64,000 nt of DNA from Escherichia coli (GTDB taxonomy: Bacteria > Pseudomonadota > Gammaproteobacteria > Enterobacterales > Enterobacteriaceae), in assembly GCF_046105845.1 (NCBI RefSeq), contig NZ_CP151004.1; one strand, given 5' to 3'. The notes beneath the pieces were generated by a model. The model searched no databases. It had not been told where the DNA came from and saw nothing but the letters and a program-made list of their open reading frames with translations. The first letter of the stretch is position 1. Each line of letters begins with the position of its first letter. The position numbers and the translations under genes were made by a program. This document shows, one piece after another, positions 2,662-34,159 of this stretch.

Positions 2662-4638
2662 ATGTCTGACGACATGTCTATGGGTTTGCCTTCGTCAGCG
2701 GGCGAACACGGTGTACTACGCTCCATGCAGGAGGTTGCAATGAGCTCCCAGGAAGCCAGCAAGATGCTGCGTACTTACAATATTGCCTGGTGGGGCAATA
2801 ACTACTATGACGTTAACGAGCTGGGCCACATTAGCGTGTGCCCGGACCCGGACGTCCCGGAAGCTCGCGTCGATCTCGCGCAGTTAGTGAAAACTCGTGA
2901 AGCACAGGGCCAGCGTCTGCCTGCACTGTTCTGTTTCCCACAGATCCTGCAGCATCGTTTGCGTTCTATTAACGCCGCGTTCAAACGTGCGCGGGAATCC
3001 TACGGCTATAACGGCGATTACTTCCTCGTTTATCCGATCAAAGTTAACCAGCACCGCCGCGTGATTGAGTCCCTGATTCATTCGGGCGAACCGCTAGGCC
3101 TGGAAGCCGGTTCCAAAGCGGAGTTGATGGCGGTGCTGGCACATGCTGGCATGACCCGTAGCGTCATCGTCTGCAACGGTTATAAGGACCGCGAATATAT
3201 CCGCCTGGCATTAATTGGCGAGAAGATGGGCCACAAGGTCTATCTGGTCATTGAGAAGATGTCAGAAATTGCCATTGTGCTGGATGAAGCAGAACGTCTG
3301 AATGTCGTTCCTCGTCTGGGCGTGCGTGCGCGTCTGGCTTCGCAGGGCTCCGGTAAATGGCAGTCCTCCGGCGGGGAAAAATCGAAGTTCGGCCTGGCGG
3401 CGACTCAGGTACTGCAACTGGTTGAAACCCTGCGTGAAGCCGGGCGTCTCGACAGCCTGCAACTGCTGCACTTCCACCTCGGTTCGCAGATGGCGAATAT
3501 TCGCGATATCGCGACAGGCGTTCGTGAATCCGCGCGTTTCTATGTTGAGCTGCACAAGCTGGGCGTCAATATTCAGTGCTTCGACGTCGGCGGTGGTCTG
3601 GGCGTGGACTATGAAGGCACCCGTTCGCAGTCCGACTGTTCGGTGAACTACGGCCTCAATGAATACGCCAACAACATCATCTGGGCGATTGGTGATGCGT
3701 GTGAAGAAAATGGTCTGCCACATCCGACAGTAATCACCGAGTCGGGTCGTGCGGTGACTGCACATCACACCGTGCTGGTGTCGAATATCATCGGCGTGGA
3801 ACGTAACGAATACACGGTGCCGACTGCGCCTGCAGAAGACGCACCGCGCGCCCTGCAAAGCATGTGGGAAACCTGGCAGGAGATGCACGAACCGGGAACT
3901 CGCCGTTCTCTGCGTGAGTGGTTGCATGACAGCCAGATGGATCTGCACGATATTCATATCGGCTACTCTTCCGGCACCTTTAGCCTGCAAGAACGCGCAT
4001 GGGCTGAGCAGCTTTATTTGAGCATGTGCCATGAAGTGCAAAAGCAGCTGGATCCGCAAAACCGTGCTCATCGTCCGATTATCGACGAGCTGCAGGAACG
4101 TATGGCGGACAAAATGTACGTCAACTTCTCGCTGTTCCAGTCGATGCCGGATGCGTGGGGGATCGACCAGTTGTTCCCGGTTCTGCCGCTGGAAGGGTTG
4201 GATCAAGTGCCGGAACGTCGCGCTGTGCTGCTGGATATTACCTGTGACTCTGACGGTGCTATCGACCACTATATTGATGGTGATGGTATTGCCACGACAA
4301 TGCCAATGCCGGAGTACGATCCAGAGAATCCGCCGATGCTCGGTTTCTTTATGGTCGGCGCATATCAGGAGATCCTCGGCAATATGCACAACCTGTTCGG
4401 TGATACCGAAGCGGTTGACGTGTTCGTGTTCCCTGACGGTAGCGTAGAAGTAGAACTGTCTGACGAAGGCGATACCGTGGCGGACATGCTGCAATATGTA
4501 CAGCTCGATCCGAAAACGCTGTTAACCCAGTTCCGCGATCAAGTGAAGAAAACCGATCTTGATGCTGAACTGCAACAACAGTTCCTTGAAGAGTTCGAGG
4601 CAGGTTTGTACGGTTATACCTATCTTGAAGATGAATAA
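2662..4638 (+). CDS. speA: Biosynthetic arginine decarboxylase
   Basis: ORF 2650..4638; sequence from [25 protein letters not shown]... recognised as SpeA; ATG at 2662 with a gagg SD gives 658 aa. Confidence 0.96.
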
Positions 4639-4654
4639 TTAAGATTATTCCGCT

Positions 4655-4697
4655 GGCGGGTCGATTTATTTACGTAAATCGGCCCGCTTTCTTTTTA
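4655..4697 (+). terminator. Putative intrinsic terminator after speA
   Basis: Imperfect hairpin gcgggtcgattta / taaatcggcccgc followed by tttcttttt. Confidence 0.55.
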
Positions 4698-4783
4698 TAT
4701 ATTCTTAAAAATAATTTAGCTGCTTTTCTTATTAAATAATCCCCCTACAATCGCTGCATTAATTAAATACAGAGGGAACGGTT

Positions 4784-5515
4784 ATGAAAAAAGGGAAAGT
4801 ACGTAGCGCGTTGATAGCATTAGCCGTGCTGCTGGCCGGTTGTTCCAGTAATGCGCAGTATAATAGCAGTGCATCGGGCAATGTCGGCACCGCCTGGGGT
4901 GGGGATGTGCACTCATCGGTTCAGGGCGTATCTGCTGAGCGAGCCTGGCGCGATCCGGCAGAGATGATCGTTATTAGTTATTCGACTAATGTTCCTTCCG
5001 GCTATGATCGCGTTTATAGCATTCGTATTAACGAACTGGAATATGCTATTCGCGATGGTAATTTTAATTCTCTACCTATTACGCGTGTTTATGATTCATC
5101 CAATAATGAACCACGCTATATTGTCCATGCCAGAGTCGGAATGAATTATCAATTATATGTCCGTAATTACAGTCGTAACACCAACTACGAGATCGTTGCT
5201 ACGGTTGATGGCCTGGATGTGCTGAACGGCAAGCAAGGTTCGCTGAATAACAACGGCTATATTGTGAATGCCGGAGATTCGTTAGCGATTAAAGGATTTC
5301 GCAAAGATAAACATACCGAAGCGGCTTTTCAGTTCGCCAACGTTGCTGATTCCTACGCAGCCAATTCGGCGCAAGGCGATGTGCGTAATACCGGGGTAAT
5401 CGGCTTTGCCGCCTTTGAATTACAAGGCTCGGCGCAAAACGCGATGCCGCCGTGCTCTGGACAAGCCTTTCCGGCAGATAACAATGGCTATGCGCCGCCA
5501 CCGTGTCGGAAATAG
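4784..5515 (+). CDS. Predicted lipoprotein of unknown function (243 aa)
   Basis: ATG at 4784 with SD gaggga 5 nt upstream; N-terminus MKKGKVRSALIALAVLLAG-C has a signal peptide and LAGC lipobox; Asn/Tyr/Ser-rich mature part; gene visibly AT-richer than speA/speB; own terminator downstream. Confidence 0.75.
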   Translation: MKKGKVRSALIALAVLLAGCSSNAQYNSSASGNVGTAWGGDVHSSVQGVSAERAWRDPAEMIVISYSTNVPSGYDRVYSIRINELEYAIRDGNFNSLPITRVYDSSNNEPRYIVHARVGMNYQLYVRNYSRNTNYEIVATVDGLDVLNGKQGSLNNNGYIVNAGDSLAIKGFRKDKHTEAAFQFANVADSYAANSAQGDVRNTGVIGFAAFELQGSAQNAMPPCSGQAFPADNNGYAPPPCRK

Positions 5516-31719: not shown

Positions 31720-32952
31720 ATGGCAAAGGTATCGCTGGAGAAAGACAAGATTAAGTTTCTGCTGGTAGAAGGCGTGCACCAAAAGGCGCTTGAAAGCCTT
31801 CGTGCAGCGGGTTACACCAACATCGAATTTCACAAAGGCGCGCTGGATGATGAACAATTAAAAGAATCCATCCGCGATGCCCACTTCATCGGCCTGCGAT
31901 CCCGTACCCATCTGACTGAAGACGTGATCAACGCCGCAGAAAAACTGGTCGCTATTGGCTGTTTCTGTATCGGAACAAACCAGGTTGATCTGGATGCGGC
32001 GGCAAAACGCGGGATCCCGGTATTTAACGCACCGTTCTCAAATACGCGCTCTGTTGCGGAGCTGGTGATTGGCGAACTGCTGCTGCTATTGCGCGGCGTG
32101 CCGGAAGCCAATGCTAAAGCGCACCGTGGCGTGTGGAACAAACTGGCGGCGGGTTCTTTTGAAGCGCGCGGCAAAAAGCTGGGTATCATCGGCTACGGTC
32201 ATATTGGTACGCAATTGGGCATTCTGGCTGAATCGCTGGGAATGTATGTTTACTTTTATGATATTGAAAACAAACTGCCGCTGGGCAACGCCACTCAGGT
32301 ACAGCATCTTTCTGACCTGCTGAATATGAGCGATGTGGTGAGTCTGCATGTACCAGAGAATCCGTCCACCAAAAATATGATGGGTGCGAAAGAGATTTCA
32401 CTAATGAAGCCCGGCTCGCTGCTGATTAATGCTTCGCGCGGTACTGTGGTGGATATTCCGGCGCTGTGTGACGCGCTGGCGAGCAAACATCTGGCGGGGG
32501 CGGCAATCGACGTATTCCCGACGGAACCGGCAACCAATAGCGATCCATTTACCTCTCCGCTGTGTGAATTCGACAACGTCCTTCTGACGCCACACATTGG
32601 CGGTTCGACTCAGGAAGCGCAGGAGAATATCGGCCTGGAAGTTGCGGGTAAATTGATCAAGTATTCTGACAATGGCTCAACGCTCTCTGCGGTGAACTTC
32701 CCGGAAGTCTCGCTGCCACTGCACGGTGGGCGTCGTCTGATGCACATCCACGAAAACCGTCCGGGCGTGCTAACTGCGCTGAACAAAATCTTCGCCGAGC
32801 AGGGCGTCAACATCGCCGCGCAATATCTGCAAACTTCCGCCCAGATGGGTTATGTGGTTATTGATATTGAAGCCGACGAAGACGTTGCCGAAAAAGCGCT
32901 GCAGGCAATGAAAGCTATTCCGGGTACCATTCGCGCCCGCCTGCTGTACTAA
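31720..32952 (+). CDS. serA: D-3-phosphoglycerate dehydrogenase
   Basis: 410-aa ORF MAKVSLEKDKIKFLLVEGVHQKALESL... with NAD-binding GIIGYGHIG and C-terminal ACT domain. Confidence 0.97.
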   Translation: MAKVSLEKDKIKFLLVEGVHQKALESLRAAGYTNIEFHKGALDDEQLKESIRDAHFIGLRSRTHLTEDVINAAEKLVAIGCFCIGTNQVDLDAAAKRGIPVFNAPFSNTRSVAELVIGELLLLLRGVPEANAKAHRGVWNKLAAGSFEARGKKLGIIGYGHIGTQLGILAESLGMYVYFYDIENKLPLGNATQVQHLSDLLNMSDVVSLHVPENPSTKNMMGAKEISLMKPGSLLINASRGTVVDIPALCDALASKHLAGAAIDVFPTEPATNSDPFTSPLCEFDNVLLTPHIGGSTQEAQENIGLEVAGKLIKYSDNGSTLSAVNFPEVSLPLHGGRRLMHIHENRPGVLTALNKIFAEQGVNIAAQYLQTSAQMGYVVIDIEADEDVAEKALQAMKAIPGTIRARLLY

Positions 32953-32971
32953 TTCCCCTTCTCTGAAAATC

Positions 32972-33004
32972 AACGGGCAGGTCACTGACTTGCCCGTTTT
33001 TTTA
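32972..33004 (+). terminator. Intrinsic terminator of serA
   Basis: acgggcaggtcactgacttgcccg hairpin followed by ttttttt. Confidence 0.85.
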
Positions 33005-33149
33005 TCGCTTCTCCCGCGCATGTCGCTGCCATTTGTAGTGCGCTGCAATTGCCTTTGCGAGTCTGCTCGAAGAAATAAATCAAAGTCAGATCAATGCGTT
33101 GTGTTTATTTAATGGGGATTTACGATGGCAGGGCAGCATGGGGCTGTAA

Positions 33150-33291
33150 CGGTAAAGCCCTCACCGAAGCGAGGGCTTGAAGGAGAAGGGTTATGATGCG
33201 ACTTGTCATCATACTGATTGTACTGTTACTCATAAGTTTCCCAGCTTATTAACAGTCAGTCTCAGGGGAGGAGTCATCCTCCCTTACCCTT
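33150..33291 (-). ncRNA. sibC: SibC antisense sRNA (antitoxin to ibsC); boundaries approximate
   Basis: Opposite strand of ibsC; putative sigma70 promoter (TTGACA, 17-nt spacer, TAATTT) at 33299-33327 and a minus-strand GC hairpin (33165-33188) with T-rich tail at the other end. Confidence 0.6.
33193..33252 (+). CDS. ibsC: Type I toxin IbsC (19-aa hydrophobic peptide)
   Basis: SD aggagaaggg then ATGATG...; translation MMRLVIILIVLLLISFPAY, one residue different from the IbsC sequence I recall; not in ORF track because it is too short. Confidence 0.85.
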   Translation: MMRLVIILIVLLLISFPAY

Positions 33292-33298
33292 ACTCACT

Positions 33299-33327
33299 AA
33301 ATTAGGTTAAAGAATCAACGATGTCAA
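33299..33327 (-). promoter_or_regulatory. Putative sigma70 promoter of sibC
   Basis: Minus-strand TTGACA (33322-33327) with 17-nt spacer to TAATTT (33299-33304). Confidence 0.45.
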
Positions 33328-33352
33328 TCAGGGCGATGCAGGTGTGTCGCCC

Positions 33353-33901
33353 TCACCACTCCCAGACTTTCGACGGTGTAACCACCGCAGGAAGTGGGAT
33401 ATCCCACTCTTCAACGGGGAGTTTTTCCACCAACTGACAATCATGCGCATAACCCACCGGTTGCATTTTATAGTGCTGCCAGTTTTGTAAGGTTCGATCA
33501 TAAAAACCACCGCCCATTCCCAGGCGCTGACCGTACTCATCAAAGGCGACCAGCGGTGTGATCAACACGTCTAATCGGGAAAGGGGTAGCACGTCACGCA
33601 CATCCAGTTTTGGCTCATGGATCTTCAACCTGTTCATCACCAGTTCGCTTTGCGGATGGTAATTCAGGAACAGCAAATTACCGGCACTAAAGGGATGCAA
33701 AACTGGAAGATATACGCGCTTACCGGCGCGCCAGAGTTGTTCTATGAGTGGCTGGGTGTCGAGTTCGCCATCAAAAGAGAGGAATACAGCGACCGTATGC
33801 GCCATCACCACTGGGGGATAAGTCATCATCCGGGTAGCAGCTTGTTGACCCATTTCCTGCTGTTGTTCCGGCGTTAACGCACGACGACGTTGCCGAATCA
33901 T
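33353..33901 (-). CDS. ygfA: 5-formyltetrahydrofolate cyclo-ligase
   Basis: ORF 33353..34099 trimmed to MIRQRRRALTPEQQQ... at 33901 (182 aa). The ORF-track 248-aa version runs through ssrS; an alternative start MTQLPEL at 33955 cannot be excluded. Confidence 0.88.
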   Translation of the reverse strand: MIRQRRRALTPEQQQEMGQQAATRMMTYPPVVMAHTVAVFLSFDGELDTQPLIEQLWRAGKRVYLPVLHPFSAGNLLFLNYHPQSELVMNRLKIHEPKLDVRDVLPLSRLDVLITPLVAFDEYGQRLGMGGGFYDRTLQNWQHYKMQPVGYAHDCQLVEKLPVEEWDIPLPAVVTPSKVWEW

Positions 33902-33973
33902 TTTGCGGATTTCTTGTCGGGATAATGTCAGTGGGAGTTCTGGTAGTTGCGTCATGGCTGGTGCCAGATAAGA

Positions 33974-34159
33974 AGGGAATCTCCGAGATGCCGCCGCAGG
34001 CTGTAACCCTTGAACCCTTGGTTCAAGGTGAATGTGTCGTCGCAGTTTTAAGGCTTCTCGGACGGACCGAGCATGCTCACCAACCGCGGAGCGCCACATT
34101 CTTGTGGTATGAAATATCGGCTCAGGGGACTGGCCCGCTTGCGAACATCTCAGAGAAAT
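33974..34159 (-). ncRNA. ssrS: 6S RNA (RNA polymerase sigma70-holoenzyme regulator)
   Basis: Minus-strand sequence AUUUCUCUGAGAUGUUCGCAAGCGGGCCAGUCCCCUGAGCCGAUAUUUCAUACC...GGAGAUUCCCU matches the E. coli 6S RNA as I recall it; located between zapA and ygfA. Exact 3' end uncertain by a few nt. Confidence 0.93.

What the first reader, a model, noticed from the sequence alone, without database searches (positions are those of the whole stretch)
33150..33330. Type I toxin-antitoxin pair ibsC/sibC in the serA-ygfA intergenic region
A 19-codon ORF with a strong SD encodes MMRLVIILIVLLLISFPAY, a membrane-toxic Ibs-type peptide differing by one residue (P for S near the C-terminus) from the IbsC sequence I recall. 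A putative sigma70 promoter on the opposite strand just downstream would drive an antisense RNA (SibC) covering the whole ORF. The ORF track misses the peptide because of its size.
Basis: partly seen in the sequence, partly recalled or inferred. Interest (0 to 1): 0.55.

Follow-up and report, generated by a model that had tools for sequence, protein, structure and literature searches.

The report
Known ibsC/sibC toxin-antitoxin locus
This is the well-known E. coli ibsC/sibC type I toxin-antitoxin pair, a 19-residue membrane toxin gene fully covered by an antisense antitoxin RNA, at its usual place between serA and fau (ygfA). The one-residue difference from strain K-12 is the commonest natural allele, so the finding is correct but ordinary.

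Summary
Window 33193-33252 (+) encodes MMRLVIILIVLLLISFPAY behind an AAGGAG Shine-Dalgarno sequence. The opposite strand matches Rfam SIB_RNA (RF00113) end to end at 136.5 bits against a gathering score of 56. The K-12 annotation of sibC (141 nt) maps to window 33291->33151 (-), so the RNA covers the ORF and its ribosome-binding site. Flanking genes are serA and fau (ygfA), as in K-12.

Across 33150-33330 the window differs from K-12 at only 6 bases. None of them changes the predicted SibC fold. RefSeq already annotates this exact allele as IbsC (WP_071525914.1, strain PCN033).

The Ser17->Pro change replaces the whole codon (AGC->CCA). It falls on SibC +49..+51, the triplet Han et al. 2010 swapped to retarget SibC from ibsC to ibsD (TRD1). 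The Pro allele is in 2790 of 5426 complete E. coli genomes and the K-12 Ser allele in 2165. TRD2, the anti-SD element, is unchanged.

The locus is already known and interest is low. The only open point is whether this TRD1 allele loosens discrimination against ibsD.

The parts
33193..33252 (+). ibsC coding sequence: 19 codons plus stop, MMRLVIILIVLLLISFPAY*
   Evidence: Translation. 18 of 19 residues match K-12 IbsC. The identical ORF is annotated as ibsC (WP_071525914.1) in PCN033.
33179..33185 (+). ibsC Shine-Dalgarno sequence (GAAGGAG), which is the target of SibC TRD2
   Evidence: Sequence. It is unpaired in the predicted ibsC mRNA fold. In Han 2010 numbering, G50/G51/G53 of ibsC mRNA pair with SibC C110/C109/C107, and these map to 33182, 33183 and 33185.
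33099..33133 (+). Inferred ibsC promoter: -35 TTGTGT 33099-33104, 16-nt spacer, -10 TACGAT 33121-33126, start site near 33133
   Evidence: Inferred. Han 2010 reports an 18-nt 5' overhang of ibsC mRNA beyond the SibC 3' end and a 159-nt transcript. 33151-18 = 33133, and the paper's G50/51/53 numbering then fits the SD. The stretch is 100% identical to K-12. The generic scan does not detect it.
33133..33291 (+). ibsC mRNA as defined in vitro by Han 2010 (159 nt). The 3' end in vivo is not mapped.
   Evidence: The fold has z = -5.0 against shuffles.
33151..33291 (-). SibC antitoxin RNA, 141 nt (5' end at 33291, 3' end at 33151)
   Evidence: K-12 annotation of sibC b4446 transferred through alignment A1. 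Rfam hit. Fold -55.3 kcal/mol, z = -4.9, same architecture as K-12 SibC.
33299..33327 (-). SibC promoter: -35 TTGACA (33327-33322), 17-nt spacer, -10 TAATTT (33304-33299)
   Evidence: Sequence. These positions are the conserved first 30 columns of the Rfam SIB model. There is one spacer difference from K-12, at 33308.
33155..33178 (-). SibC terminator hairpin (P7; SibC +114..+137), followed by UUUACC
   Evidence: Fold. Compensatory pair changes occur among paralogs. The generic terminator scan does not report it because the U-tract is short.
33224..33246 (-). TRD1 of SibC (+46..+68). The P5 loop is +48..+55, and the essential core +46..+53 is 33239-33246.
   Evidence: Domain limits from Han 2010. 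Loop position from the fold.
33241..33243 (.). Variant triplet: ibsC codon 17 is CCA (Pro) where K-12 has AGC (Ser). This is SibC +49..+51, UGG where K-12 has GCU.
   Evidence: Alignment. It is the same triplet that Han 2010 mutated (G49CU51->UGC) to retarget SibC to ibsD.
33177..33193 (-). TRD2 of SibC (+99..+115). The single-stranded J1/7 core CUCCUUC (+107..+113) is 33179-33185, the anti-SD.
   Evidence: 17 of 17 bases identical to K-12 SibC. Unpaired in the fold. Domain limits from Han 2010.
33274..33275 (.). Two-base difference from K-12 in the SibC P2 hairpin loop (+17, +18)
   Evidence: SibC +1..+29 is dispensable for ibsC repression.

Best explanation
This is the chromosomal ibsC/sibC type I toxin-antitoxin module of Escherichia coli.

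On the + strand, a weak promoter near 33099-33126 produces a roughly 160-nt mRNA. It encodes the 19-residue hydrophobic peptide IbsC, which depolarises the inner membrane and is lethal when overproduced.

On the - strand, a promoter with a perfect -35 (33327-33322) produces the 141-nt SibC RNA (33291->33151). SibC is perfectly complementary to the ibsC ribosome-binding site and to the whole ORF.

SibC contacts the mRNA through two independent single-stranded elements. One is the P5 loop (TRD1, inside the ORF at codons 16-18). The other is the J1/7 anti-SD segment (TRD2). Pairing spreads from these contacts, and the mRNA is degraded and its translation blocked, so no toxin is made while SibC is present.

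What is shown here is the sequence, the RNA-family membership, the synteny, the predicted folds and the allele frequencies. What is inferred by near-identity to K-12 is transcription, toxicity, and the TRD1/TRD2 mechanism established by Fozo 2008 and Han 2010.
For: - Rfam SIB_RNA: 136.5 bits against a gathering score of 56, full length.
- The ORF translates to an Ibs peptide, 18 of 19 residues identical to K-12 IbsC.
- K-12 annotates sibC and ibsC at the orthologous place between fau and serA.
- Only 6 base differences from K-12 across 33150-33330, all in loops or the promoter spacer.
- The identical ORF is annotated as ibsC by PGAP in PCN033.
- The locus is present in 5425 of 5426 complete E. 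coli genomes.
- The predicted SibC fold puts TRD1 in a hairpin loop and TRD2 in a single-stranded junction, as in Han 2010.
- Nine base pairs show compensatory changes among eight Sib copies.
- The 18-19-codon ORF is kept in every paralog examined.
- Toxicity, membrane depolarisation and SibC-dependent repression in K-12 come from PMC2943612 and PMC8309996.
Against: Nothing in the sequence argues against it. There are three caveats.

- No expression or toxicity data exist for this particular genome.
- The SibC -10 hexamer matches only 3 of 6 consensus positions, and neither promoter passes a generic sigma-70 scan.
- The Pro17 variant of IbsC itself was not found tested in any paper I could read. 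The mutagenesis paper, Mok 2010, is not held.
Confidence: 0.95

Rival explanations
1. The locus is a decayed copy. The Ser17->Pro change near the C-terminus, a region reported as needed for toxicity, inactivates the toxin, and SibC then regulates nothing.
For: A review of the Mok 2010 mutagenesis says residues 6-19, including the C-terminal residues, are needed for IbsC toxicity. Proline can break a helix.
Against: - Pro at the equivalent position is found in K-12 IbsB (SFPAY) and IbsE (SFPTY), the latter annotated 'toxic peptide IbsE'.
- The Rfam family consensus carries the Pro codon (GCuGgGaAaC).
- The CCA allele is in 2790 of 5426 genomes, more than the K-12 allele.
- The SD, start codon, stop codon, both promoters and the SibC fold are all intact.
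Confidence: 0.04
2. The small ORF is incidental. The element is only a structured small RNA (SibC) with other, trans-encoded targets.
For: The ORF is tiny, and any ~140-nt sequence can contain a 19-codon frame. SibC is abundant and its promoter is bound by sigma-S RNA polymerase in K-12.
Against: - An 18-19-codon frame with the MM(K/R)...(F/L/Y)x(A/T)Y* pattern and an SD is kept in all ten copies examined across four strains.
- Published K-12 work shows that the ibsC plasmid cannot be established without SibC.
Confidence: 0.01

Closest known systems
E. coli K-12 ibsC (b4665) / sibC (b4446; formerly rygC, QUAD1c)
   Same: It is the same genomic position (serA-fau intergenic), with the same 141-nt RNA and 19-codon ORF. 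The SD, the TRD2 (17 of 17), the terminator and the ibsC promoter region are identical. The predicted SibC architecture and MFE (-55.3 kcal/mol) are also identical.
   Different: - Codon 17 is CCA (Pro) instead of AGC (Ser), which makes SibC +49..+51 UGG instead of GCU, inside the TRD1 loop.
- Two bases differ in the P2 loop and one in the SibC promoter spacer.
- The predicted target hairpin in ibsC mRNA has a 4-nt loop rather than a 6-nt loop. The UUCA (YUNR) motif that Han 2010 pointed to reads UUCC here.
- The 33007-33070 patch upstream of the ibsC promoter is diverged, with two indels.
Paralogous Ibs/Sib pairs of K-12 (ibsA/sibA, ibsB/sibB, ibsD/sibD, ibsE/sibE)
   Same: They belong to the same RNA family and have the same layout. 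IbsB and IbsE also carry Pro at the equivalent residue. The TRD1 stretch +46..+68 of the window's SibC matches K-12 SibD at 21 of 23 positions, with a single mismatch in the loop core.
   Different: They sit at different loci (yegL-mdtA and yqiK-hldE). The SibC-type TRD2 (CUUCUCCUUC) is unique to the serA-fau copy. Overall identity among the copies is about 82%.
Other type I toxin-antitoxin systems (hok/sok, ldr/rdl, tisB/istR-1, shoB/ohsC, symE/symR)
   Same: Each pairs a small toxin gene (in most a hydrophobic membrane peptide) with an antisense RNA antitoxin that blocks translation or triggers mRNA decay.
   Different: In Sib/Ibs the antisense RNA spans the whole functional mRNA, both translation initiation region and ORF, and uses two independent recognition domains. 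There is no sequence relationship to the other systems.

Membership tests
Rfam RF00113 SIB_RNA | Covariance-model score at or above the curated gathering score (56 bits) | tested here: met
   136.5 bits, E = 5.4e-28, model positions 1-147 of 147, at 33177-33327 (-).
Ibs/Sib type I toxin-antitoxin | An 18-19-codon, highly hydrophobic ORF with its own SD, on the strand opposite the Sib RNA | tested here: met
   MMRLVIILIVLLLISFPAY, with AAGGAG 7 nt upstream. 18 of 19 residues match K-12 IbsC.
Ibs/Sib type I toxin-antitoxin | The antisense RNA covers the entire ORF and the translation initiation region | tested here: met
   SibC at 33151-33291 contains the SD (33179-33185) and the ORF (33193-33252). 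Coordinates were transferred from the K-12 annotation.
ibsC/sibC (the specific ortholog) | Location between serA and fau (ygfA) | tested here: met
   serA at 31720-32952 (+) and fau from 33353 (-) flank it. K-12 and PCN033 have the same order.
ibsC/sibC (the specific ortholog) | SibC-type TRD2 (C107UCCUUC113 within +99..+115) | tested here: met
   17 of 17 bases identical to K-12 SibC. It differs from all other paralogs (9-12 of 17).
ibsC/sibC (the specific ortholog) | K-12-type TRD1 core (G49CU51 in the P5 loop) | tested here: not met
   The window has U49GG51. This is allelic variation within the ortholog. The allele is in 2790 of 5426 E. coli genomes at this locus and PGAP names it ibsC. 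Cis-complementarity to its own mRNA is kept by construction.
Ibs/Sib type I toxin-antitoxin | Conserved Sib secondary structure (P1, P2, P4/P5, P6, terminator P7) | tested here: met
   The MFE fold is identical to that of K-12 SibC. In the consensus of eight copies, 9 of 42 pairs are kept through changes on both sides.
Ibs/Sib type I toxin-antitoxin | Both RNAs are transcribed, the peptide is toxic on overexpression, and the cognate Sib represses it | not testable with these tools
   Shown for K-12 only (PMC2943612; PMC8309996). It is inferred here from near-identity.

The most novel reading that the evidence does not exclude
The Ser/Pro difference is really an RNA-level polymorphism of the TRD1 specificity triplet. 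With UGG at +49..+51, SibC is one G-G mismatch away from a 23-bp helix with K-12-type ibsD mRNA (14 + 8 matched bases). Han 2010 showed that a contiguous 22-bp TRD1 helix is enough to repress ibsD.

By inclusion-exclusion, at least 1309 complete E. coli genomes carry both this SibC allele and the K-12-type ibsD allele. So the strict cognate-only wiring described for K-12 may be looser in about half of E. coli.

Codon 17 of Ibs may also be a hot spot of diversification driven by antisense-RNA specificity rather than by the peptide. At this locus it is Ser, Pro or Gly between strains, and it differs between the two tandem copies in O157:H7.
Probability: 0.15. Interest if true: 0.3.

Novelty: already known. 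Interest (0 to 1): 0.08.

Why it matters
It matters little beyond correct annotation. ibsC/sibC has been characterised since 2008, sits in Rfam and EcoCyc, and PGAP annotates this very allele. The finding does show that the first-stage reader can recover a 19-codon gene that ORF tracks miss.

One point is of mild specialist interest. The difference from K-12 falls exactly on the experimentally defined specificity triplet of the antitoxin RNA, and the K-12 version is the minority allele. Conclusions about Sib/Ibs orthogonality drawn from K-12 may therefore not hold across the species.

Tried and rejected
- **Generic promoter/terminator scan.** It found no promoter and only the serA terminator. 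I did not take this as evidence against the element. The scan needs at least 4 of 6 matches in each hexamer and at least 5 T after the stem. The SibC -10 (TAATTT), the ibsC -35 (TTGTGT) and the SibC terminator tail (UUUACC) all fall below those cut-offs, yet they are conserved with K-12.
- **NCBIfam scan of the peptide.** The Pfam scan has a 30-residue minimum, so I did not attempt it.
- **Primary papers.** Fozo 2008 (PMC2597788) and Mok 2010 (PMC3009890 and its DOI) are not held. Their content is cited only through Han 2010 and a 2021 review.
- **Minus-strand ORF 33120-33233 (37 aa).** It runs past the SibC 3' end at 33151, so SibC could not encode it whole. I treated it as a mechanical ORF.
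- **SibC TRD1 allele co-varying with paralog alleles to avoid near-identical TRD1s.** Rejected as a strict rule: at least 1309 genomes must carry both the window-type SibC and the K-12-type SibD alleles. In the best-matching strain, PCN033, no paralog shares more than 11 contiguous bases with the window SibC reaching the TRD1 core.
- **Rare or strain-specific Pro17 allele.** Rejected: it is in 2790 of 5426 genomes. The low count of genomes at 99% identity or more over the 421-nt query (61) probably reflects mainly the variable 33007-33070 patch, not the TA module.

Full report
**What is in the sequence**

Window 33193-33252 (+) is a 19-codon ORF plus stop, translating to MMRLVIILIVLLLISFPAY*. 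AAGGAG at 33180-33185 lies 7 nt before the ATG.

A scan of the whole 64-kb window against Rfam at gathering thresholds gives two hits. One is 6S RNA at 33976-34159 (-). The other is SIB_RNA (RF00113) at 33177-33327 (-), scoring 136.5 bits against a gathering score of 56, E = 5.4e-28, covering model positions 1-147 of 147. The antisense element is therefore real and far beyond chance.

**Context and orthology**

The flanking ORFs are rpiA and serA (31720-32952, +) on one side. On the other side are fau/ygfA (from 33353, -), ssrS, zapA, ygfB and pepP.

In K-12 MG1655 the same interval is annotated with sibC (b4446, 141 nt) and ibsC (b4665, 'toxic peptide IbsC') between fau and serA.

The 421-nt interval 32940-33360 is 100% identical to E. 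coli PCN033, where PGAP annotates the ORF as ibsC, WP_071525914.1. 3.4 kb around the locus is 99.94% identical to PCN033. The locus has a match in 5425 of 5426 complete E. coli genomes.

**Anatomy in window coordinates**

I transferred the K-12 annotation through the pairwise alignment. This places SibC at 33291 (5' end) to 33151 (3' end) on the minus strand, so SibC position n is window 33292 - n.

- **SibC promoter.** Upstream are a perfect -35 TTGACA (33327-33322), a 17-nt spacer and a -10 TAATTT (33304-33299). These positions are the conserved first 30 columns of the Rfam model.
- **SibC terminator.** The 3' end is a GC-rich hairpin (33178-33155) followed by UUUACC.
- **ibsC transcript.** Han et al. 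2010 (PMC2943612) report that ibsC mRNA overhangs the SibC 3' end by 18 nt and used a 159-nt transcript. That puts the ibsC start near 33133, behind TTGTGT-16 nt-TACGAT (33099-33126).
- **Check on the mapping.** The paper's G50, G51 and G53 of ibsC mRNA, which pair with SibC C110, C109 and C107, fall on the G residues of the SD at 33182, 33183 and 33185. This confirms the coordinate transfer.

The generic promoter/terminator scan reported none of these signals except the serA terminator. Its thresholds exclude weak hexamers and short U-tracts.

**Structure**

The window's SibC folds to -55.3 kcal/mol, z = -4.9 against dinucleotide shuffles. Its dot-bracket structure and MFE are the same as for K-12 SibC.

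In that fold, +48..+55 is the P5 hairpin loop and +107..+113 (CUCCUUC, the anti-SD) is a single-stranded junction. These are the two target-recognition domains defined experimentally by Han et al.: TRD1 (+46..+68, essential core +46..+53) and TRD2 (+99..+115).

A consensus fold of eight Sib copies from K-12, PCN033 and the window keeps 42 pairs. Nine of them are kept through changes on both sides.

**Differences from K-12**

Across 33150-33330 there are six base differences.

- All three bases of ibsC codon 17 differ: AGC->CCA at 33241-33243.
- Two bases differ in the SibC P2 loop: 33274-33275, SibC +17 and +18.
- One base differs in the SibC promoter spacer: 33308.

SibC +1..+29 is dispensable for repression. 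TRD2 is 17 of 17 identical.

The codon-17 triplet is SibC +49..+51, reading UGG here and GCU in K-12. It is exactly the triplet that Han et al. changed (G49CU51->UGC) to give SibC the TRD1 of SibD and make it repress ibsD. Because toxin and antitoxin are read from the same DNA, complementarity within the pair is automatically preserved.

Two small consequences appear on the mRNA side. The predicted target hairpin has a 4-nt loop instead of a 6-nt loop. The UUCA (YUNR) motif mentioned by Han et al. becomes UUCC. On the SibC side, the P5 loop still contains a YUNR, CUGG.

**How common is the allele**

I used 41-nt queries centred on codon 17, so that every 28-nt megablast seed must span the codon.

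| Allele queried | Genomes with a match (of 5426) |
|---|---|
| Window CCA/Pro allele of ibsC | 2790 |
| K-12 AGC/Ser allele of ibsC | 2165 |
| K-12-type ibsD allele (GCA) | 3945 |

The Pro allele is therefore the majority form. It also matches the Rfam family consensus at this point.

Position 17 is the variable residue across paralogs: Q in IbsA, P in IbsB, A in IbsD and P in IbsE. It also varies at this locus between strains. O157:H7 SS52 carries two tandem copies between serA and fau that differ from each other only at codons 16-17, FG against LP.

**Cross-talk check**

PCN033 has four copies: sibA, a sibB-like copy, a single D/E-like copy and this sibC. None of the others shares more than 11 contiguous bases with the window's SibC reaching the TRD1 core. 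The SibC-type TRD2 is unique to this copy.

Against K-12-type SibD, the window's TRD1 differs by one base in the loop, giving runs of 14 and 8 matched bases. By inclusion-exclusion, at least 2790 + 3945 - 5426 = 1309 genomes carry both alleles. There is therefore no strict avoidance of near-identical TRD1s. Whether partial cross-repression occurs is untested.

**Mechanism**

These steps are established for K-12 and inferred here. IbsC is a hydrophobic alpha-helical peptide that depolarises the inner membrane and kills on overproduction (review PMC8309996). SibC is made constitutively, and its promoter is bound by sigma-S RNA polymerase in K-12 (PMC4447067).

SibC contacts ibsC mRNA through TRD1 and TRD2. 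Pairing then spreads, and the mRNA is degraded and its initiation region is occluded. Either TRD alone suffices for repression. The biological role of the module remains unsettled in the literature.

**Verdict**

The feature is already known and already annotated in RefSeq for this exact allele, so interest is low.

The rival that the Pro17 toxin is dead is unlikely. Pro occurs at this position in other Ibs toxins and in half of all E. coli ibsC genes. The rival that the ORF is incidental is contradicted by its conservation in every copy examined and by published genetics.

I could not read Fozo 2008 or Mok 2010. I also could not run a protein-family scan on a 19-residue peptide.

Noticed in passing
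window 33976-34159 (-): 6S RNA (ssrS): Rfam RF00013 at 139.8 bits, full length. It lies immediately upstream of fau/ygfA on the same strand, as in K-12.
   Followed up: partly
window 33007-33070: There is a short hypervariable patch between the serA terminator (32972-32998) and the conserved ibsC promoter region. It has two indels (5 and 7 nt) and many substitutions relative to K-12, while the flanks are identical. It probably accounts for most of why 5323 of 5425 genomes are only 90-95% identical over the 421-nt interval. Its cause is unknown.
   Followed up: partly
L008 1741-1800 and 2134-2193 (E. coli O157:H7 SS52, serA-fau interval): Some lineages (O157:H7, O111, O113, O145 and others, those with '2 places') carry two tandem ibs/sib copies at this locus. 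In SS52 the two peptides differ only at residues 16-17 (SFGAY against SLPAY), which is the TRD1 triplet region. That pattern fits duplication followed by divergence of the specificity element.
   Followed up: partly
L006 19592-19651 (E. coli PCN033, yqiK-hldE interval): PCN033 has a single Ibs/Sib copy (Gln17; Rfam SIB 138.7 bits) where K-12 has two (ibsD/sibD and ibsE/sibE). Copy number at that locus varies too.
   Followed up: partly
window 21000-45000: The 24-kb neighbourhood is at most 98.4% identical to any full-length match among 5426 complete E. coli genomes. In contrast, 3.4 kb around ibsC is 99.94% identical to PCN033. The window may come from a lineage outside that collection (for example Shigella or an uncommon phylogroup), or it may be a mosaic.
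   Followed up: no
window 33353-34099 (-): The mechanical ORF for fau extends to an upstream ATG (248 aa) and runs through the 6S RNA gene. RefSeq annotates 200 aa in PCN033, which corresponds to window 33353-33955. The longer ORF is an artefact of ORF calling.
   Followed up: no
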